Source: a virus. From it: DNA of 64,000 nucleotides. Positions 4,526-52,342 of the stretch are shown in pieces. A model generated the notes under the pieces. It saw only the letters and a program-made list of their open reading frames with translations. It had not been told where the DNA came from and searched no databases. The translations under genes were made by a program, and so were the position numbers. Every line of letters starts with the position of its first letter. Position 1 is the first letter of the stretch. The stretch lies in the UHGV virus genome UHGV-0382128, one strand, 5' to 3'.

Positions 4526-4557
4526 GATAATTCTCCTTTAGGGTAAAAAATGAAAAT

Positions 4558-4581
4558 ACCCTACTCCTGTCTAGGAGTAGG
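4558..4581 (-). terminator. rho-independent terminator (CCCTACTCC-loop-GGAGTAGGG family)
   Basis: hairpin ccctactcc-tgtcta-ggagtaggg with flanking A-run on plus strand; lies after the stop of 4589..5248. Confidence 0.55.
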
Positions 4582-4588
4582 GTAGGTA

Positions 4589-10895: not shown

Positions 10896-10910
10896 GATGA
10901 CTCCTTAGGT

Positions 10911-10932
10911 CGGGTAGGGTTTACCCTACCCG
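10911..10932 (-). other. intergenic hairpin without U-tract (possible RNA stability or processing element)
   Basis: cgggtagggt..accctacccg inverted repeat between recombinase-like gene stop and next gene SD. Confidence 0.3.
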
Positions 10933-10939
10933 ATCCTAT

Positions 10940-13605: not shown

Positions 13606-13618
13606 AAAAGTAAAGCTA

Positions 13619-13642
13619 CCCCTAGACCACACGGTCTAGGGG
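13619..13642. terminator. bidirectional rho-independent terminator between convergent genes
   Basis: hairpin cccctagacc-acac-ggtctagggg flanked by A-run upstream and T-rich run downstream. Confidence 0.55.
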
Positions 13643-13650
13643 TAAACTAT

Positions 13651-24409: not shown

Positions 24410-24418
24410 AAAAGATTA

Positions 24419-24440
24419 CCCTACTCCTTCGGGAGTAGGG
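24419..24440. terminator. bidirectional rho-independent terminator (CCCTACTCC family)
   Basis: hairpin ccctactcc-ttcg-ggagtaggg between convergent genes, A-run upstream and T-run downstream. Confidence 0.6.
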
Positions 24441-24451
24441 TAGCTTTTATT

Positions 24452-25031: not shown

Positions 25032-25053
25032 CCCTACTCCCGGAGGAGTAGGG
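25032..25053 (-). terminator. rho-independent terminator (CCCTACTCC family)
   Basis: hairpin ccctactcc-cgga-ggagtaggg with T-rich run on minus strand. Confidence 0.5.
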
Positions 25054-28471: not shown

Positions 28472-28495
28472 GTATAGCGATATATGTTTTACCCA

Positions 28496-28864
28496 TTATC
28501 GATTTTTCGTAATCCATTGCTTGACCGCCGCTTCTAAACCTTCGTGTTGTAAGCCCAGGCGTTGCATAGTCAGTGCCAGGTTGAGCGTGTGTACAACCTG
28601 TTCACGGAACTGATGATCGTTCATACGGTCCCAGACCTTCTCTACTGAAATGTTGTGTTTCCAGAGCAAATAAGCTTCGCGACACGATGCGCGACGAACC
28701 AAGCTGGGTTTAACAAAAGGCAACTCGATTTCAGGCAAGTAACCTAAAAGCTTAACTAGCGGCGTTACTTGCGTCTTACCGAAGTCACCGCACTGATAAC
28801 AAATTTGCAGAATATCAATTTCATTCAACGGTATACCGTAAATTGATGGGTTCTCTGTGAACAT
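28496..28864 (-). CDS. hypothetical protein (122 aa)
   Basis: ORF track. Confidence 0.45.
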   Translation of the reverse strand: MFTENPSIYGIPLNEIDILQICYQCGDFGKTQVTPLVKLLGYLPEIELPFVKPSLVRRASCREAYLLWKHNISVEKVWDRMNDHQFREQVVHTLNLALTMQRLGLQHEGLEAAVKQWITKNR

Positions 28865-29132
28865 TCATATTCTCCTCAGGCTCGAAATGTGATTCGGGTG
28901 GCAATGTCCCTAAAGCCCCTTGGATACAAGCCGTCAGCGTAGGTTTGCCAAAACAGACCTTACCTATTGTCCCCACATTGGGATGTTGTAAGAACGCTTT
29001 TGCACGTTCGTATTCCTTCCAACAAATACTCGTATCCAAACCACCCACTCCGTACGATTTTAACATAATTAGCTCTCCTGACGTAAATTTCTCACACTCA
29101 TAGTGAGGTACGTCAGGAGAGCTTGATTGTTT

Positions 29133-29582
29133 TTAGAATGTTTTGCTAAAATCGACCCACTCACGATCGTGCGAGTAAACCGCCTGATAGCCGCGTCGGA
29201 TGAAATACTCTTTTGCTTCTTTACATTTCGCATACATGCCAGTAACAATCTCACCGAAAACTTCATCAGCTGCAATTGCTTTGAAAATCTCTTTCATTAC
29301 ACCCCGTTGACGATAGTCTGGGAGCACGTATACCGAACGTATCTTAAGTGAACCGTTACGATTCCGATAACTACAGTATCCTACCGCGACATCATCCTGA
29401 TACACCAGAACTATGCAGTTACCTTCGATCAGCTGTCGCGCATTTAACTTCGGCACCGACGTTTTGATTTTCAGTAACGTGGCCTGGTGGTCTAAGTAAC
29501 GGTAGTGTAGTTTGAGTAAATCGGCAGCTTGTCGCTCACCGACTTTAGAAGATGCGTTCAACAAATAAATTTCCATTTGCAA
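29133..29582 (-). CDS. GNAT-family acetyltransferase candidate (149 aa)
   Basis: VLPDYRQRGVMKEIFKAI resembles GNAT motif A. Confidence 0.5.
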   Translation of the reverse strand: MQMEIYLLNASSKVGERQAADLLKLHYRYLDHQATLLKIKTSVPKLNARQLIEGNCIVLVYQDDVAVGYCSYRNRNGSLKIRSVYVLPDYRQRGVMKEIFKAIAADEVFGEIVTGMYAKCKEAKEYFIRRGYQAVYSHDREWVDFSKTF

Positions 29583-29608
29583 ACCTTAGAGACGCAAAAA
29601 AAGTAAAA

Positions 29609-29737
29609 TTAAAACCAACGCGCGATGACGAATGCCGCAGCGGCTAATATGGCCGTGGTGATTATTAATCCACCCCATGAAAGTTCCGCATCGTATAATG
29701 CGGATATCGCTACATTCGTAGTGTTTATCGAGGTCAT
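29609..29737 (-). CDS. small single-TM peptide (about 42 aa), not in ORF track
   Basis: manual translation MTSINTTNVAISALYDAELSWGGLIITTAILAAAAFVIARWF; AGGAG SD 5-6 nt upstream. Confidence 0.3.
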   Translation of the reverse strand: MTSINTTNVAISALYDAELSWGGLIITTAILAAAAFVIARWF

Positions 29738-29794
29738 TTTCTGCTCCTAGTAATACCCTCACGCCGGAGGGTATCTTCTGGATTATTTGGGTGG

Positions 29795-29893
29795 TTAATC
29801 TTCGAACGCCCAACGGTGTCGTTTAATCAGCCAGTTTAAACCTTTACCAATTAACCACAACGAGCCAAGTGTTAACAGAACCCCTACAACCAT
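29795..29893 (-). CDS. small single-TM peptide (32 aa), not in ORF track
   Basis: manual translation MVVGVLLTLGSLWLIGKGLNWLIKRHRWAFED; SD AGGAGAGGG upstream. Confidence 0.3.
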   Translation of the reverse strand: MVVGVLLTLGSLWLIGKGLNWLIKRHRWAFED

Positions 29894-29903
29894 ATTCCCT
29901 CTC

Positions 29904-30089
29904 CTAATTCCGCCATTCGCATTCGCGTTGACGCCAAATTGAACCCCACGATAGTTTAATCAGATAAGATGAAACTACCCATAAAATCATCACCACACAA
30001 AACATGACATAAAGAACCGCTAGAATGGACATGAAGCCAAACCCTGCCGCATCCACAATACGACGGAACCAATCAGTTTGCATAAACAA
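29904..30089 (-). CDS. small membrane protein (61 aa)
   Basis: ORF track; hydrophobic core FGFMSILAVLYVMFCVVMILWVV; start overlaps end of the Rad50-like gene. Confidence 0.3.
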   Translation of the reverse strand: MFMQTDWFRRIVDAAGFGFMSILAVLYVMFCVVMILWVVSSYLIKLSWGSIWRQRECEWRN

Positions 30090-33799: not shown

Positions 33800-33837
33800 T
33801 TTAATACTCCTTTAGGTAAAACATGTCGTAAAAAGGA

Positions 33838-33854
33838 CCCCGGACGTTCCGGGG
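33838..33854 (-). terminator. rho-independent terminator
   Basis: hairpin ccccgga-cgt-tccgggg preceded on plus strand by AAAAAGGA. Confidence 0.5.
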
Positions 33855-33866
33855 CCAAGACTACAC

Positions 33867-34256
33867 TCAATGTTCTAATTCGATAGCGCCAGCCATCTTG
33901 CCCCGTTCTTCGATAACGATCAGATAACGGTCGCGAGATTTGCTTTTAGCGAGAGTTAAGACAACAGTAGGGTCGCACGTTTTCGTGGTGATAGGAAGAA
34001 CCTCTCTTGCAACGGAATCGAGTAGAAAGTAATAACCTGCGGGACACATTGTGCCGCCATCAGCTTTTACCAGAATATAGCGCCCGTCTGCGCCGACTTC
34101 TTGGCAGATTGTTTCACCGACTTCACAAACTTCAAACCCCGGGGGATTGTACTGATAATCGGTATTGTTGTTTGAGGTTAGCAGTAAATCATTAACCTGG
34201 GTAGATGCCGCTACACTCAGGGAGAAGAAGAATGCTAAAGCGCAGATGAGACGCAT
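33867..34256 (-). CDS. secreted small Cys-containing protein (129 aa), secreted-array member 1
   Basis: signal peptide MRLICALAFFFSLSVAAS; shares Cys pattern and YILVKADGG/YVFIVEQGG core with 34267..34677. Confidence 0.5.
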   Translation of the reverse strand: MRLICALAFFFSLSVAASTQVNDLLLTSNNNTDYQYNPPGFEVCEVGETICQEVGADGRYILVKADGGTMCPAGYYFLLDSVAREVLPITTKTCDPTVVLTLAKSKSRDRYLIVIEERGKMAGAIELEH

Positions 34257-34266
34257 GAGTTACTCC

Positions 34267-34677
34267 TTAAATTTTAAGTTTATCCATAGCTACAACGATA
34301 GGTTTTTCCGAAGTGTCTAATATCCCTACCATCGGTACACCATTTTTGATTTCGAAGAACGGTTTGTTATTGCCAGAGCACAAACGTTTGTCGTTGTATT
34401 CGAGACGTTGTGCCTTCCACGTTTCGAGGTTGAGTACGGACATAGGGCTGTCGTAGCACCAGGCCCCACCCTGCTCAACGATGAACACGTATCTGCTACC
34501 TTTGTATTTAAACAGGCTCTTCGCCTGACAGTACAGACCGTCAATTTCTGTACAGTAGAAATCGTCGGTACTATTGACGTACTTAATTCCAGCTGGCAAT
34601 TGTGTTATTTTTGCTGATACGTTAACAGAGAACAGAATAGCAATTGCAATGAGAAGAGTGTTGATGATAGTTTTCAT
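34267..34677 (-). CDS. secreted small Cys-containing protein (136 aa), secreted-array member 2
   Basis: signal peptide MKTIINTLLIAIAILFSVNVSA. Confidence 0.5.
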   Translation of the reverse strand: MKTIINTLLIAIAILFSVNVSAKITQLPAGIKYVNSTDDFYCTEIDGLYCQAKSLFKYKGSRYVFIVEQGGAWCYDSPMSVLNLETWKAQRLEYNDKRLCSGNNKPFFEIKNGVPMVGILDTSEKPIVVAMDKLKI

Positions 34678-34687
34678 GATAAACTCC

Positions 34688-40545: not shown

Positions 40546-40752
40546 GATTTACTCGCTAATCTCAATAAAGGGGAGTCTATTATTATGGATTGTAAAAGAG
40601 GTATAAGGAAGTCACTACGTTCCTCTGGGAAGAGTATGTCGGTATACTACGTATACCTCCGCTATTTATATCCGTATACATAATGCCCCCTACCCCCTAC
40701 CGGTATCCCGAGTAGCAGAATAAAGGGGCAGACTGTAAAATTTTAGTACCTG

Positions 40753-40833
40753 TTATCGGAAGGTACTAAATGGAGTGTAGTCTTTAAGCCGTTTGAGCAG
40801 CTCATTGAGACTTTCTTTCTTTTTAGTAGACAT
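40753..40833 (-). CDS. possible small basic peptide (26 aa), not in ORF track
   Basis: MSTKKKESLNELLKRLKDYTPFSTFR with GGGGAGA SD 6 nt upstream; lies in the 420-nt strand-switch region. Confidence 0.2.
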   Translation of the reverse strand: MSTKKKESLNELLKRLKDYTPFSTFR

Positions 40834-40886
40834 GATCTGTCTCCCCAAATGGTTTAATCAATCCGTTTCGAATGAAACGTGTCCGT

Positions 40887-40911
40887 AGGGGCTGAACTGG
40901 CACTTCAGCCC
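40887..40911. other. hairpin immediately preceding 21-nt conserved element copy 2
   Basis: ggggctgaa-ctggcac-ttcagcccc (9-bp stem). Confidence 0.45.
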
Positions 40912-40920
40912 CTATTCACT

Positions 40921-40941
40921 TAAGTAATATATATCTGAAAT
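40921..40941 (+). promoter_or_regulatory. 21-nt AT-rich conserved element copy 2, candidate promoter or 5' UTR element for 40967..41932
   Basis: identical to 36539..36559; 25 nt upstream of the ATG of the first plus-strand gene after the long minus block. Confidence 0.4.
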
Positions 40942-40966
40942 CAATTCCGATCTAAGGAACGTCCCG

Positions 40967-41932
40967 ATGGAGAAATCCAGTGTTGATTTTTTCTCAATTG
41001 GTATCGTCGCGGAAGACAAACCCCGTGGTACAGATCGGGTAAAAGTGATACCAATTGAAACCAACTTTGCTAACCCTACCGTGGTGCAATCTGTTTCTTC
41101 AGCAACTGAAAAGACGCATGAAACATCTGGTGCAACAGATAACCTAACCATTAAGACGGGTAACACGATAACAGCAAAGTGGTGGAAGTTTAACTCCAAC
41201 CGAATTAATTCCCCTGACGTTAAACGAGAAGATTACGTTATCTTGTTACGTTTGGGGAAAACCGATATTTATTTTTGGATTGATCTGAACTTCGCTAACG
41301 TTAAGCGATTAGAGGATGCGGTTTACGCGTGGTCTGCTGACCCTGAAAACCAGATGGCGGATGACCTGTCCAATGCGTATGTGTTGAATATCTCGACGAT
41401 TGACAAACATATCACGCTAAGAACAAGTATGGTGAACGGTGAGAAAGCGGCGTGGTTGTTTCAGTTTGATAATGCAAACGGTACGTGGCAGTGTGTTGAC
41501 CATAAAGGAAACAAGTATTACATTAACTCGGTTGAAGATGATCTCGGGTTTGAGAATGCGATGCTTTCAAAAGTGAACATCAACAAAGAAGATGCGTTCA
41601 TTTATTCAAAGCGTTCTATTAACCTGGAAACGAAAACAATTAATGAAAAATGCGAAGTTCGCAATACGGAAGCAGCGAAATCCGTTACGTTTAAAACGCA
41701 AACCTGGTTAACGGAAGCAGGGAGTTCGACAACATTTAAAACGCCGAACTTTAAACAAGAAGGGAATGAAGCGATGTTCACCGGTAATCTGGAAATCGCT
41801 AAGAACTTCAAATACGGTGGTACGGGCAAAGGCGTCGGTGTCTTTACGGTTAAAGATGCCGTTATTTCTGGTATTACCTTTAGCGTTCACATTCACCAAG
41901 GTAAACATGGCCCGACATCACCTCCACAGTAA
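40967..41932 (+). CDS. hypothetical protein (321 aa), possibly structural
   Basis: ORF track; AAGGA SD; beta-rich Thr/Asn/Lys composition. Confidence 0.55.
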   Translation: MEKSSVDFFSIGIVAEDKPRGTDRVKVIPIETNFANPTVVQSVSSATEKTHETSGATDNLTIKTGNTITAKWWKFNSNRINSPDVKREDYVILLRLGKTDIYFWIDLNFANVKRLEDAVYAWSADPENQMADDLSNAYVLNISTIDKHITLRTSMVNGEKAAWLFQFDNANGTWQCVDHKGNKYYINSVEDDLGFENAMLSKVNINKEDAFIYSKRSINLETKTINEKCEVRNTEAAKSVTFKTQTWLTEAGSSTTFKTPNFKQEGNEAMFTGNLEIAKNFKYGGTGKGVGVFTVKDAVISGITFSVHIHQGKHGPTSPPQ

Positions 41933-42050
41933 TTCCCCTTTTTCTTACGTTGTTTTTATATATTGTGACCTGACGTTGGTAAAACTTTTTATCAACACTT
42001 TTCTTAAACCCATCGTTTAGTTAAGCAGGCCACTTTTTTCGCGCACTCTA

Positions 42051-42070
42051 CTCCTCCCTACGGGGAGGAG
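42051..42070 (+). terminator. hairpin, weak terminator or attenuator candidate
   Basis: ctcctccc-tacg-gggaggag followed by a weak U-stretch. Confidence 0.3.
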
Positions 42071-42138
42071 CTATCTTATGCTTCGGTTGTAACACACGTC
42101 GGTCTTAGACCACTAACCTTTTGAAATGGAGAGCTGTT

Positions 42139-42348
42139 ATGTCTATTAAAGAGTTCTCTTCTGCTGAGCATATTCCAGAAGAGTTTAAGAAAATCGGTAA
42201 CGTCAGCGCTTTCGGCGATACCGTTGATCATGTAACTGGTAAACTGGCTGCTGAAGCCGAAAAAATTGGTGGTGACGCATTCAAAGTTATCGGTATTTCC
42301 GGCAACAACAAACTGCACGGTAACGCGATTGTCTACAAAAAAGACTAA
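42139..42348 (+). CDS. DUF1471 (YhcN/BhsA/YdgH-like) domain protein without signal peptide (69 aa)
   Basis: GNVSAFGDTVDHVTGKLAAEAEKIGGDAFKVIGISGNNKLHGNAIVYKK matches the enterobacterial DUF1471 pattern; start at Met 7 of the ORF (GGAGAG SD). Confidence 0.55.
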   Translation: MSIKEFSSAEHIPEEFKKIGNVSAFGDTVDHVTGKLAAEAEKIGGDAFKVIGISGNNKLHGNAIVYKKD

Positions 42349-42367
42349 GCGAAAAAAAAACGTGCTA

Positions 42368-42392
42368 CTCCTACCCTCTAAGAGGGTAGGAG
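42368..42392. terminator. bidirectional rho-independent terminator
   Basis: hairpin ctcctaccctct-a-agagggtaggag with A9 run upstream and T7 run downstream, between convergent genes. Confidence 0.65.
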
Positions 42393-42398
42393 GTTACT

Positions 42399-43661
42399 TT
42401 ATTTTTTTCGTGCTCTAAAGCGATGCATTTCTAAATACACTTTTTCCCAGGGACCGAATGGACCAACGATTGCTTGAGCATCGTTAATCTTCTTCTGATT
42501 ATACCACCGGGCTTCACGAAAGACGTAGTTTTGACTGTCGAATTCGGTAGTGTTAAATACCCACTCACCTTCCTCCCACGTAGGCCAATAACCTACCGTC
42601 TTTCCAAATCGATTATTTAAGTACCCTAATGGTTTTTCAGAATCAGGATCGTTGGGGTCCTTGAGATAACAGCGTCCCCAAACGGCGTTATGCGAAACAC
42701 CCACAACTTCTTCTTCTAAATACGGATTATCTACCGTAAAGATAAAAGAGGATTCGTGGAGTAAAAGTGCTTTTAGTGTTTCAGGGTTACGAATACGTTG
42801 AACGTTGGTAGGCGATGATAAATCCCCTACACCGATGCTATCCCAGTCGTAATAACGGCGGGTTTCCAGAACGGTCCGTGCAAGATCAAAATTCGGTAAA
42901 GAAATCATGATCGCACGGTCAGAGAAATAACCGTCCGGTGGCAACCAACGTAGCAATCCGCCTATGACGAAACCCACGGTTTTTCCCGTAATAGACTCAG
43001 GCAGCGATATCATTAACGTGGAGTAATAGTCGCGCGTAGTGTCGAGCTTGTTTAGCGTAAGGTTGGCGATTGGGTAAGTTTTAACATTCCCTAGCTGACC
43101 AAAAACCATACAGCCAATATCTGGTGTACATGCTCTCCGTACGATTTTACCGGCCCCAGGCAATCGCACACCTACGGTATCCGTCTGGTGTGGTACCCAT
43201 TGGCCGTTAATGTTGTACAGTACACTATTACGGTATTTGTCTTTCCACTTGTCCTCACAAACGACGACAACGTCATCAGCATCGTCTAGGCTGAAATCTT
43301 GACTGTGGTGGTACCCTGGTGGACACAGATATGTTTCGACAGGTACATCGGCATTAATTGATTGGTAATGTGCCCAACTGAATTCCAGTTTCGGCAATCC
43401 AGCCTTTAGAGTGGGAATGACGTTTCCGGCCTTTTCGTTTAACCAATCTTGTAAAGTGTCTGTTCGGTTTTGTAGTTCGGCAAGATGGTATTGACTGACT
43501 AACGTATAGTCTTTACCAAGTGCACTTAAACCGATCTCAAAGGTGTGGTAGTCTGAACACAACGTAGTTAAAGGTTGCGTGACATCGATGGCTCCCCAGG
43601 TACGGGACTCTCGAGAGAAGCCAAAAGCGCTGTCGGGCCGCACTTGATAAGCAGTAGTCAC
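42399..43661 (-). CDS. hypothetical protein (420 aa), divergent from the tail-fibre operon
   Basis: ORF track; apparent GTG start. Confidence 0.55.
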   Translation of the reverse strand: MTTAYQVRPDSAFGFSRESRTWGAIDVTQPLTTLCSDYHTFEIGLSALGKDYTLVSQYHLAELQNRTDTLQDWLNEKAGNVIPTLKAGLPKLEFSWAHYQSINADVPVETYLCPPGYHHSQDFSLDDADDVVVVCEDKWKDKYRNSVLYNINGQWVPHQTDTVGVRLPGAGKIVRRACTPDIGCMVFGQLGNVKTYPIANLTLNKLDTTRDYYSTLMISLPESITGKTVGFVIGGLLRWLPPDGYFSDRAIMISLPNFDLARTVLETRRYYDWDSIGVGDLSSPTNVQRIRNPETLKALLLHESSFIFTVDNPYLEEEVVGVSHNAVWGRCYLKDPNDPDSEKPLGYLNNRFGKTVGYWPTWEEGEWVFNTTEFDSQNYVFREARWYNQKKINDAQAIVGPFGPWEKVYLEMHRFRARKK

Positions 43662-43730
43662 AGCTCTTTTTCCTCTATAGATTCAAGTCATAGTATGAAC
43701 TTCGACGCCCACGGACTATAGGAGTAGATA

Positions 43731-52248: not shown

Positions 52249-52286
52249 GACAGACTGCCTGCGGGCAGTTGTGTGTCCGTAGGTAA

Positions 52287-52309
52287 CCCCTCCCTGTAAT
52301 GGGGAGGGG
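52287..52309 (+). terminator. rho-independent terminator inside the tail-fibre operon
   Basis: hairpin cccctccc-tgtaat-ggggagggg followed by tatccattttattt. Confidence 0.55.
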
Positions 52310-52342
52310 TATCCATTTTATTTAAAAGTAGGAGTCTTTACG

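What the first reader, a model, noticed from the sequence alone, without database searches (positions are those of the whole stretch)
42139..42348. DUF1471-like gene flanked by terminators, lacking a signal peptide
The 69-aa product matches the enterobacterial YhcN/BhsA/YdgH (DUF1471) pattern (LAAEAEKIGGDAFKVIGISGNNKLHGNAIVYKK), a family of secreted stress and biofilm proteins, but here the N-terminus (MSIKEFSSAEH) has no signal peptide. The gene has a hairpin upstream and a strong bidirectional terminator downstream, a moron-like layout. This looks like a host-derived domain repurposed by the phage, possibly acting in the cytoplasm.
Basis: partly seen in the sequence, partly recalled or inferred. 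Interest (0 to 1): 0.5.

Follow-up and report, generated by a model that had tools for sequence, protein, structure and literature searches.

The report
Signal-less DUF1471 protein in jumbo-phage baseplate module
A real 69-residue gene in a giant enterobacterial phage encodes a copy of a bacterial periplasmic "stress/biofilm" domain without its export signal; it is the counterpart of a known small protein found in SPN3US virus particles and lies among the tail-tip genes, so it is more likely a minor particle component than a cytoplasmic factor.

Summary
ORF 42139-42348 (+) encodes 69 aa, passes Pfam PF07338 (DUF1471/YdgH-BhsA; 38.2 bits, cut-off 27), and models with the DUF1471 fold (pLDDT 89; TM 0.73-0.78 to YdgH, SrfN, YahO). 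It has no hydrophobic N-terminus and is colinear with the mature bacterial protein. A covarying bidirectional terminator hairpin follows it and a weaker hairpin precedes it.

The window comes from an SPN3US-like jumbo phage. The gene is the ortholog of SPN3US gp172 (PHROG 8068). It sits in the same slot in four phage genera, between the central tail spike (phiKZ gp164 homolog) and a baseplate protein (phiKZ gp130 homolog). Public records already annotate it as DUF1471 or "BhsA". Published mass spectrometry found gp172 in purified SPN3US virions, and did not mark it as a head protein.

The nearest Vibrio-phage relative has an empty slot, so this is an old, host-derived, monocistronic cassette, under purifying selection and possibly exchanged between lineages.

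My best reading is a low-copy tail or baseplate-associated protein that needs no export signal because virions assemble in the cytoplasm. It is not a BhsA equivalog. I rate it a new member of a known kind, of modest interest.

The parts
42139..42348 (+). 69-aa DUF1471-fold protein without a signal peptide; ortholog of SPN3US gp172 (PHROG 8068)
   Evidence: Pfam PF07338 at 38.2 bits against GA 27. PHROG 8068 E=4.5e-32 over the full length. AF2 model and Foldseek matches to DUF1471 structures. Hydrophobicity. Purifying selection.
42128..42131 (+). Shine-Dalgarno GGAG, 7 nt upstream of the ATG
   Evidence: Read from the sequence. (A/T)TGGAGA before the ATG is shared by the window and five relatives; the Derbicusvirus group has CTGAGGA.
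42368..42392 (.). Bidirectional intrinsic-terminator hairpin shared by the DUF1471 gene and the convergent 420-aa gene. A-run at 42352-42360 and T-rich tract at 42398-42409 flank it.
   Evidence: Terminator scan. z=-6.3 and -6.2 on the two strands. 8 of 11 pairs covary across 8 phages.
42051..42070 (+). Upstream 8-bp GC-rich hairpin with a weak T tail. Likely a partial terminator of the spike transcript.
   Evidence: z=-2.3. The equivalent position in Asesino holds an 11-bp hairpin followed by TTCTTTTTT. SPN3US has none.
42077..42080 (+). TATG motif, 59 nt before the ATG. Candidate phiKZ-type late promoter/TSS; weak evidence.
   Evidence: A TATG follows the hairpin in all 9 aligned phages. The phiKZ late promoter is T(-3)ATG(+1) (PMC7598289). 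However, TATG is not enriched upstream of genes in this window.
42029..42045 (+). Conserved non-coding box GCCACTTTTTTCGCGCA; function unknown
   Evidence: CCACTTTTTTC is shared with SPN3US, SPAsTU, Asesino, phiEaH2 and Wellington. It occurs once in the window.
40967..41932 (+). Neighbour: central tail spike / cell-puncturing protein (SPN3US gp173 ortholog)
   Evidence: phmmer hits phiKZ gp164 (6ORJ) at E=1.6e-21. The C-terminus matches the Mu gp45 spike C-terminal domain (3VTN, 9KI1). PHROG 3216 'baseplate assembly protein'.
42399..43661 (-). Neighbour: convergent 420-aa baseplate protein (SPN3US gp171 ortholog; phiKZ gp130 homolog)
   Evidence: phmmer hits PHIKZ130 (9XQD) at E=2.6e-8. PHROG 3337. 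gp171 is essential and tail-associated in SPN3US (PMC5105663).

Best explanation
The gene encodes a small DUF1471-fold protein that is a low-copy virion component, most likely attached to the baseplate or tail-fibre complex.

Proposed history (inferred). An ancestor of the SPN3US-like jumbo phages of Enterobacterales captured a host periplasmic DUF1471 gene. The gene landed between the convergent spike and gp130-like baseplate genes. It lost the Sec signal, so the product stays in the cytoplasm where tails assemble. It became a fixed, separately terminated one-gene unit.

Proposed action (inferred). The protein is made with the structural genes and joins the tail. It reaches the cell envelope from outside when the baseplate docks. 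The envelope is the compartment where this fold normally works, and bacterial DUF1471 proteins are linked to outer-membrane function and to polysaccharide binding (SrfN). I therefore propose a role in baseplate or fibre stabilisation, or in contact with the envelope.

Shown here: the fold, the missing signal peptide, synteny, purifying selection and the terminators.
Shown in the literature for the ortholog: presence in virions.
Inferred: location on the tail, time of expression and molecular function.
For: - DUF1471 membership and fold.
- No signal peptide; colinear with the mature bacterial domain.
- The same slot between spike and gp171-like genes in four genera and about 60 phage records.
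- The neighbours are the phiKZ gp164 spike homolog and the phiKZ gp130 baseplate homolog. In phiKZ, fibres attach beneath gp130 (PMC13250141).
- SPN3US gp172 was found in purified virions with 4 unique peptides, 81% coverage and SC/M 0.86. It is not flagged 'Head'. For comparison, gp171 has SC/M 0.74 and the 12-copy portal 0.93. The contiguous genes gp167-173 are all virion proteins not flagged 'Head' (PMC5694885).
- Purifying selection.
- No sigma-70-like promoter upstream.
- GC content equals that of the phage.
Against: - The virion evidence rests on one study with 6 spectra. The authors call gp172 low-abundance, note its absence from 47(am1) particles and say its status needs more work.
- gp172 is only 44% identical to the window protein.
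- 'Not flagged Head' is not positive evidence for a tail location.
- No solved jumbo-phage baseplate contains a DUF1471 subunit: Foldseek found no phage structural chain among the top PDB matches, and the phiKZ passages read describe none.
- The gene's divergence is uncoupled from spike and gp171, which is not what a tightly bound structural partner predicts.
- Promoter class and expression timing are not established.
Confidence: 0.55

Rival explanations
1. Cytoplasmic, non-structural accessory ('moron') protein. A host DUF1471 domain stripped of its export signal acts inside the infected cell on host stress or envelope pathways or on phage development. Its detection in virions is carry-over.
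For: - One-gene unit bounded by hairpins.
- Absent from the Vibrio-phage outgroup.
- Its phylogeny disagrees with its flanks, suggesting a mobile cassette.
- Only 6 spectra in virions, and none in one mutant preparation.
- Wellington carries a second copy with a disordered acidic tail, which is unusual for a structural subunit.
Against: - 81% sequence coverage in CsCl-purified virions, with SC/M equal to known 12-copy proteins.
- Embedded in a run of virion, non-head genes (gp167-173).
- Conserved in place across four genera.
- No known cytoplasmic activity of the DUF1471 fold; Eletsky et al. say most DUF1471 sequences carry signal sequences targeting the periplasm (PMC4092069).
- No hit to anti-defence models.
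Confidence: 0.2
2. Assembly factor or chaperone for the baseplate or the large tail fibres (gp168-170 paralogs). It acts in the cytoplasm during tail morphogenesis and is only partly retained in finished particles.
For: - Small protein encoded inside the baseplate/fibre module.
- Low and variable abundance in particles.
- By general knowledge, many phage fibre chaperones are small proteins encoded next to the genes they serve.
Against: - It is not adjacent to the fibre genes; gp171 lies between them.
- No similarity to known fibre chaperone families.
- SPN3US-type and window-type alleles differ by about 55% while the flanking proteins stay 65-85% identical. A dedicated chaperone would be expected to co-evolve with its client.
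Confidence: 0.12
3. Spike-associated cargo or effector. The protein rides on or near the central spike and is released into the periplasm when the tail punctures the outer membrane. There it mimics or competes with host DUF1471 or RcsF-like proteins, for example to damp envelope-stress signalling or to alter outer-membrane permeability.
For: - The gene lies immediately downstream of the spike gene, on the same strand.
- In phiKZ the gene next to the spike gene encodes the spike-tip protein gp163.1.
- The fold belongs to a periplasmic family and also superposes on RcsF (2Y1B, TM 0.85). Eletsky et al. noted the same similarity.
- Virion delivery would explain why no signal peptide is needed.
Against: - The spike C-terminus matches the Mu gp45 spike C-terminal domain and carries an HIH motif, so a separate tip protein may not be needed (the apex interpretation is mine).
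- SC/M resembles 12-copy proteins rather than the 3-copy spike gp173, which scores 0.23.
- By Eletsky et al., RcsF differs from DUF1471 proteins in having redox-active disulfide bonds. The window protein has no cysteine.
- There is no direct evidence of ejection.
Confidence: 0.08

Closest known systems
SPN3US gp172 (SPN3US_0172, YP_009153466) and its orthologs, PHROG 8068
   Same: Same length (69 aa), same DUF1471 domain and no signal peptide. Same position between gp173 (spike) and gp171, with the same downstream bidirectional terminator. gp172 is a published virion protein, the smallest one in SPN3US (PMC5694885).
   Different: Only 44% identical to gp172 itself. The window protein belongs to the other allele group, shared with SPAsTU (80%), Asesino (72%) and phiEaH2 (71%). 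SPN3US lacks the upstream hairpin.
Enterobacterial DUF1471 / YhcN-BhsA-McbA family (PF07338): BhsA/YcfR, YbiJ, YahO, McbA, YhcN, SrfN, YdgH
   Same: Passes the Pfam threshold and has the same beta-alpha-beta-beta core fold. It keeps the C-terminal G-x-A-x-x-Y-K motif (HGNAIVYKK). Its length equals the mature single-domain proteins.
   Different: No Sec signal peptide. It is encoded by a virulent jumbo phage inside the tail module. Its ortholog is found in virions, not in the periplasm. It falls far below every NCBIfam equivalog cut-off; the best is BhsA at 46.8 bits against 90. The 'multiple stress resistance protein BhsA' label in some phage records is therefore an over-annotation.
phiKZ gp163.1 / T4 gp5.4 (spike-tip protein encoded next to the central spike gene)
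   Same: A small virion protein encoded beside the gp164-type spike gene.
   Different: The paper calls gp163.1 homologous to T4 gp5.4, which by general knowledge is a PAAR-repeat protein. The window protein has a DUF1471 fold. The spike C-terminus matches the Mu gp45 spike C-terminal domain, so no tip protein may be needed. No sequence or structural similarity to gp163.1 was tested or found.
Phage morons (lambda/HK97 type)
   Same: A one-gene insert between two conserved genes, with its own terminator; host-derived; absent from an outgroup at the same locus.
   Different: No sigma-70 promoter. The phage is lytic with its own RNA polymerases, so there is no lysogen to benefit. GC content is not atypical. 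The insert is fixed across four genera and its product is apparently built into the virion.

Membership tests
DUF1471 / YdgH_BhsA-like (PF07338) | Scores above the Pfam gathering threshold over the whole domain | tested here: met
   38.2 bits against 27; residues 17-67 cover profile positions 2-55 of 55.
DUF1471 / YdgH_BhsA-like (PF07338) | Common DUF1471 fold as in the solved SrfN, YahO and YdgH domains | tested here: met
   AF2 model with pLDDT 89.4. Foldseek: 4EVU TM 0.75, 2M2J 0.78, 2MA8 0.74, 2JNA 0.73, 2NOC 0.73. This is a predicted structure, not an experimental one.
DUF1471 / YdgH_BhsA-like (PF07338) | N-terminal Sec signal peptide and periplasmic location (true of most members, PMC4092069) | tested here: not met
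   Maximum hydrophobicity 0.4 against about 2-3 in most full-length bacterial homologs. The protein starts at the position of the mature N-terminus. SignalP itself was not available.
DUF1471 / YdgH_BhsA-like (PF07338) | Restricted to Enterobacteriaceae/Enterobacterales | tested here: inconclusive
   The gene is viral, not bacterial. All phages carrying it infect Salmonella, Escherichia, Erwinia, Cronobacter or Proteus. The Vibrio-phage relative lacks it.
BhsA/YcfR equivalog (NCBIfam NF047859) | Score of at least 90 bits over the full-length model, signal peptide included | tested here: not met
   46.8 bits, matching only model positions 30-85.
SPN3US gp172 orthologs (PHROG 8068) | Full-length match to the family profile | tested here: met
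   E=4.5e-32, residues 1-69 against profile positions 1-70 of 70.
SPN3US gp172 orthologs (PHROG 8068) | Conserved position between the spike (gp173) and the gp171-like baseplate gene | tested here: met
   Same order and strands in SPN3US, SPAsTU, Asesino, phiEaH2, Phobos, CR5 and Derbicus. Wellington has an extra paralog.
SPN3US gp172 orthologs (PHROG 8068) | Presence in the virion | not testable with these tools
   Known only for SPN3US gp172, from MS of purified particles (PMC5694885).
Moron | Own terminator | tested here: met
   A covarying bidirectional terminator lies downstream.
Moron | Own promoter | tested here: inconclusive
   No sigma-70-like site was found. A TATG is conserved at this locus, but the motif is not enriched upstream of genes across the window.
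Moron | Present or absent between otherwise collinear relatives; atypical base composition | tested here: inconclusive
   Absent at the same junction in Vibrio phage pVp-JHP1101, but present in every close relative. GC is 41.9% against 44.2 +/- 3.9% for the window.

The most novel reading that the evidence does not exclude
A phage has turned a host periplasmic-family domain into virion cargo. The signal-less DUF1471 protein is carried on the baseplate or spike and is placed into the periplasm from outside at infection. There it mimics or antagonises host DUF1471 or RcsF-type envelope proteins, for example blunting Rcs or outer-membrane stress responses. This route to the periplasm would bypass Sec export altogether.
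Probability: 0.08. Interest if true: 0.7.

Novelty: new member of a known kind. Interest (0 to 1): 0.3.

Why it matters
The gene is a further ortholog of an already annotated protein that has been detected in virions, so on its face it is ordinary. Its modest value lies in three points:
- It corrects the 'BhsA stress-resistance protein' label that some phage records carry.
- It shows that the missing signal peptide fits a virion protein and is not evidence of a cytoplasmic role.
- It places a domain from a poorly understood envelope family, DUF1471, on a phage tail next to the membrane-piercing spike.

If the protein does act at or in the envelope during infection, it could give a handle on what DUF1471 domains bind. 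That question is still open for the bacterial paralogs.

Tried and rejected
- Phage-clade monophyly. An NJ tree on the 54-residue domain gave only 28 of 200 bootstraps, because the domain is too short. A single acquisition is argued from synteny instead.
- phiKZ-type TATG late promoter. It is conserved at this locus in 9 phages. Across the window, TATG is no more frequent upstream of genes on the sense strand than on the antisense strand (7 against 8 of 27 regions), so it remains only a candidate.
- 5' UTR structure. Not significant, z=+0.99.
- Rfam scan of 41900-42450. Only sub-threshold chance hits.
- PADLOC defence models. None.
- Word-indexed protein search. It returned only 7 close phage-type hits. 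The exhaustive profile search was needed to reach the bacterial homologs.
- Literature searches for SPN3US+DUF1471, jumbo+BhsA+phage and DUF1471+phage. None turned up a paper on the phage protein, judging by title and abstract for the third search. The SPN3US infection-proteomics paper PMC6384053 is not held, so expression timing could not be checked.
- Spike-tip (PAAR-like) role. Considered because phiKZ encodes its tip next to gp164. Down-weighted because the spike C-terminus matches the Mu gp45 spike C-terminal domain and the abundance does not fit 1-3 copies.
- Antisense ORF 42076-42318 (-), 80 aa. Treated as spurious, since the homology and the purifying selection belong to the + frame.

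Full report
**What is there.**
The + strand carries an ORF from ATG 42139 to TAA 42346-42348, encoding 69 aa. A GGAG sits 7 nt upstream of the start.
- Pfam PF07338 (YdgH/BhsA/McbA-like, DUF1471) matches at E=1.4e-9 and 38.2 bits, above the gathering score of 27. The match spans essentially the whole 55-position model.
- A profile of the phage family finds solved YahO (2MA4/2NOC) at E about 1e-6.
- An AlphaFold2 model has pLDDT 89.4 and pTM 0.74, with strands at 4-6, 16-26, 47-54 and 59-68 and a helix at 29-42.
- Its best PDB matches are the solved DUF1471 domains: YdgH-C 4EVU, YdgH-N 2M2J, SrfN 2MA8, STM0082 2JNA and YahO 2NOC, at TM 0.73-0.78. RcsF also matches (2Y1B, TM 0.85), a similarity Eletsky et al. 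had already noted.

**No signal peptide.**
I searched 1.84 billion representative proteins exhaustively with a profile and found 91 hits at E<=1e-3. The four best are 68-78 aa and align from residue 1. Most of the others are 80-90 aa, with the domain starting at about residue 30.

Maximum Kyte-Doolittle hydrophobicity over the first 30 residues is 0.4 for the window protein and at most 1.3 for the other phage-type sequences. It is about 2-3 for most full-length bacterial homologs. In a joint alignment the phage proteins begin where the bacterial AxA cleavage region ends. They are therefore colinear with the mature periplasmic protein. SignalP was not available, but the result is unambiguous.

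**Whose gene it is.**
The window comes from a jumbo phage related to SPN3US, SPAsTU, phiEaH2 and Asesino, at about 73% nucleotide identity. tblastn finds the protein in 60 phage records, all jumbo phages of Salmonella, E. coli, Proteus, Erwinia and Cronobacter.

In SPN3US, SPAsTU, Asesino, phiEaH2, Phobos, CR5 and Derbicus the gene has the same neighbours in the same orientation. These phages span Seoulvirus, Erskinevirus and Derbicusvirus. Wellington (Wellingtonvirus) has extra genes in the slot.

The family is PHROG 8068, 'unknown function' (E=4.5e-32). Public records already label it 'DUF1471 domain-containing protein' (RefSeq SPN3US gp094 = SPN3US_0172 = gp172) or 'multiple stress resistance protein BhsA' (SPAsTU, Stratton, Kwan, Wellington). 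The BhsA label is not justified: the NCBIfam BhsA equivalog scores 46.8 bits against a cut-off of 90, and only over the mature part of the model.

**The neighbours.**
- The upstream 321-aa gene (40967-41932) is homologous to the phiKZ central spike gp164 (6ORJ, E=1.6e-21). Its last ~50 residues match the Mu gp45 spike C-terminal domain, and they include an HIH motif.
- The convergent downstream 420-aa gene (42399-43661) is homologous to phiKZ gp130 (9XQD, E=2.6e-8).
- In the phiKZ atlas, gp130 links the star lobes of the outer baseplate at two copies per lobe, and fibres attach beneath it (PMC13250141).
- In SPN3US, gp171 is essential and tail-associated (PMC5105663).
- The next genes (43731 onwards; 1440, 1394 and 1728 aa) probably correspond to the SPN3US gp170-168 baseplate/fibre paralogs, judging from their position and size.

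The DUF1471 gene is therefore embedded in the tail-tip module.

**Experimental evidence from the literature.**
Ali et al. 2017 (PMC5694885) detected gp172 in CsCl-purified SPN3US virions and called it the smallest virion protein, at 7 kDa. Their Supplementary Table 1 lists 4 unique peptides, 6 spectra, 81% coverage and SC/M 0.86. [quoted passage not shown]

For scale, gp171 has SC/M 0.74, the 12-copy portal 0.93, gp168-170 have 1.0-1.4 and the spike gp173 has 0.23. A copy number of roughly a dozen is thus a loose inference.

The authors also note that gp172 was missing from 47(am1) particles, and that its status needs further work. I found no paper that discusses the DUF1471 identity or the missing signal peptide.

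**Origin and evolution.**
The nearest outgroup with both flanking genes is Vibrio phage pVp-JHP1101, with a spike 42% identical. There the two genes are convergent, separated by a 319-bp gap. The gap has no DUF1471 ORF and no profile hit in any frame. E. coli phage Goslar also lacks the gene.

Eletsky et al. describe DUF1471 as occurring exclusively in Enterobacteriaceae. Capture from a host by the ancestor of this phage group is therefore the simplest history. A tree on the short domain cannot confirm a single origin (28 of 200 bootstraps).

The gene's GC content (41.9%) matches the window (44.2 +/- 3.9%). It is under purifying selection: against SPAsTU, pN is 0.13 while synonymous sites are saturated, and dN/dS is 0.03-0.09 among closer pairs.

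Its divergence does not track its flanks:

| Pair | DUF1471 identity | Spike identity | gp171 identity |
|---|---|---|---|
| SPN3US vs SPAsTU | 43% | 75% | 85% |
| SPAsTU vs Asesino | 90% | 70% | 79% |

This points to cassette exchange between lineages or to episodic fast evolution. Wellington has a second, 186-aa DUF1471 protein immediately downstream. It also lacks a signal peptide and has a long acidic low-complexity tail.

**Transcription signals.**
- *Downstream hairpin.* The 42368-42392 hairpin has 11 bp and lies between an A-run and a T-rich tract. It is highly stable on both strands (z=-6.3 and -6.2). Across eight phages, 8 of 11 pairs change on both sides while pairing is kept. I read it as a genuine bidirectional terminator shared with the convergent gene.
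- *Upstream hairpin.* The 42051-42070 hairpin is weaker (z=-2.3, poor T tail). Asesino has a clear terminator at the same place, and SPN3US has none.
- *Not special to this gene.* Such hairpins, many built on CCCTAC...GTAGGG stems, recur in intergenic regions across the window.
- *Promoter.* No sigma-70-like promoter is present, as expected for a phage with its own RNA polymerases. All nine aligned phages have a TATG after the hairpin (42077-42080 here), which matches the phiKZ late-promoter motif T(-3)ATG(+1). TATG is not enriched upstream of genes in this window, so the promoter assignment stays tentative.
- *Conserved box.* GCCACTTTTTTCGC at 42029-42045 is unexplained.
- *Known RNA families.* Rfam finds nothing.

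**Interpretation.**
The idea of a host-derived, cassette-like gene is reasonable as evolutionary history. The functional suggestion of a cytoplasmic role is the weakest part, for three reasons:
- A phage particle protein is made and assembled in the cytoplasm, so it needs no signal peptide.
- The ortholog is found in virions.
- The genomic context is spike and baseplate.

I therefore favour a low-copy tail or baseplate-associated protein (confidence about 0.55). Its molecular role, whether stabilising the baseplate or fibre network or contacting envelope components, is inferred and not shown.

The rivals are a cytoplasmic accessory protein (0.2), an assembly factor partly retained in particles (0.12) and a spike-linked cargo released into the periplasm (0.08). 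The last is the most novel reading that the data do not exclude. It is down-weighted because the spike C-terminus matches the Mu gp45 spike C-terminal domain, and because the abundance resembles 12-copy proteins more than the 3-copy spike.

**Verdict.**
This is a real gene, a new ortholog of a known and already annotated family. It is of modest interest, mainly as a corrected annotation and as a possible experimental handle on the poorly understood DUF1471 fold.

Noticed in passing
window 4557-4584, 10910-10933, 13617-13644, 24417-24442, 25032-25053, 40886-40914, 42051-42070, 42368-42392, 52286-52310: Intergenic GC-rich hairpins recur across the window, and many share CCCTAC(TCC)...(GGA)GTAGGG-type stems. 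They look like a phage-wide terminator family, not something specific to the DUF1471 gene.
   Followed up: partly
window 42029-42045: The box GCCACTTTTTTCGCGCA lies upstream of the gene. Its CCACTTTTTTC core is conserved in SPN3US, SPAsTU, Asesino, phiEaH2 and Wellington, and it occurs once in the 64-kb window. Its function is unknown.
   Followed up: partly
L006 (Erwinia phage Wellington) 1787-2347: A second DUF1471-domain protein (186 aa, gp189) is encoded directly after the 73-aa one. It also lacks a signal peptide and has a ~120-residue acidic, low-complexity tail. It looks like a lineage-specific duplication.
   Followed up: partly
window 42139-42348 compared with L001, L002, L004: The DUF1471 gene's divergence disagrees with its flanks. 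SPN3US vs SPAsTU: 43% identity, with flanks at 75-85%. SPAsTU vs Asesino: 90%, with flanks at 70-79%. This suggests cassette exchange or rapid evolution.
   Followed up: partly
window 40967-41932: The protein annotated 'baseplate assembly protein' is a central-spike homolog. Its N-terminal ~260 residues match phiKZ gp164. Its last ~50 residues match the Mu gp45 spike C-terminal domain and include an HIH motif. This spike may therefore not need the separate tip protein that phiKZ uses.
   Followed up: partly
L009 (Erwinia phage Derbicus) 1441-1683: The annotated GTG start gives an 80-aa product. Comparison with Phobos and CR5 suggests the true start is the internal ATG 12 codons downstream (MQQFAKG...).
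   Followed up: no
window 40546-40966: A 421-bp intergenic region lies between two divergent genes. It contains a small ORF (40753-40848, - strand; the sequence from its internal Met reads MSTKKKESLNELLKRLKDYTPFSTFR) and an 11-bp hairpin at 40886-40914.
   Followed up: no
window 28472-30072 and 33800-34687: Two stretches of 1.6 kb and 0.9 kb have no ORF of 150 aa or more in an otherwise tightly packed region. They may hold small genes or RNAs.
   Followed up: no
window 43662-43730: A 69-bp divergent intergenic region lies between the gp171-like gene and the first large fibre-like gene. It carries TATG on both strands, 31 and 37 nt from the respective start codons, within a near-palindrome CATAGTATGA.
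   Followed up: no
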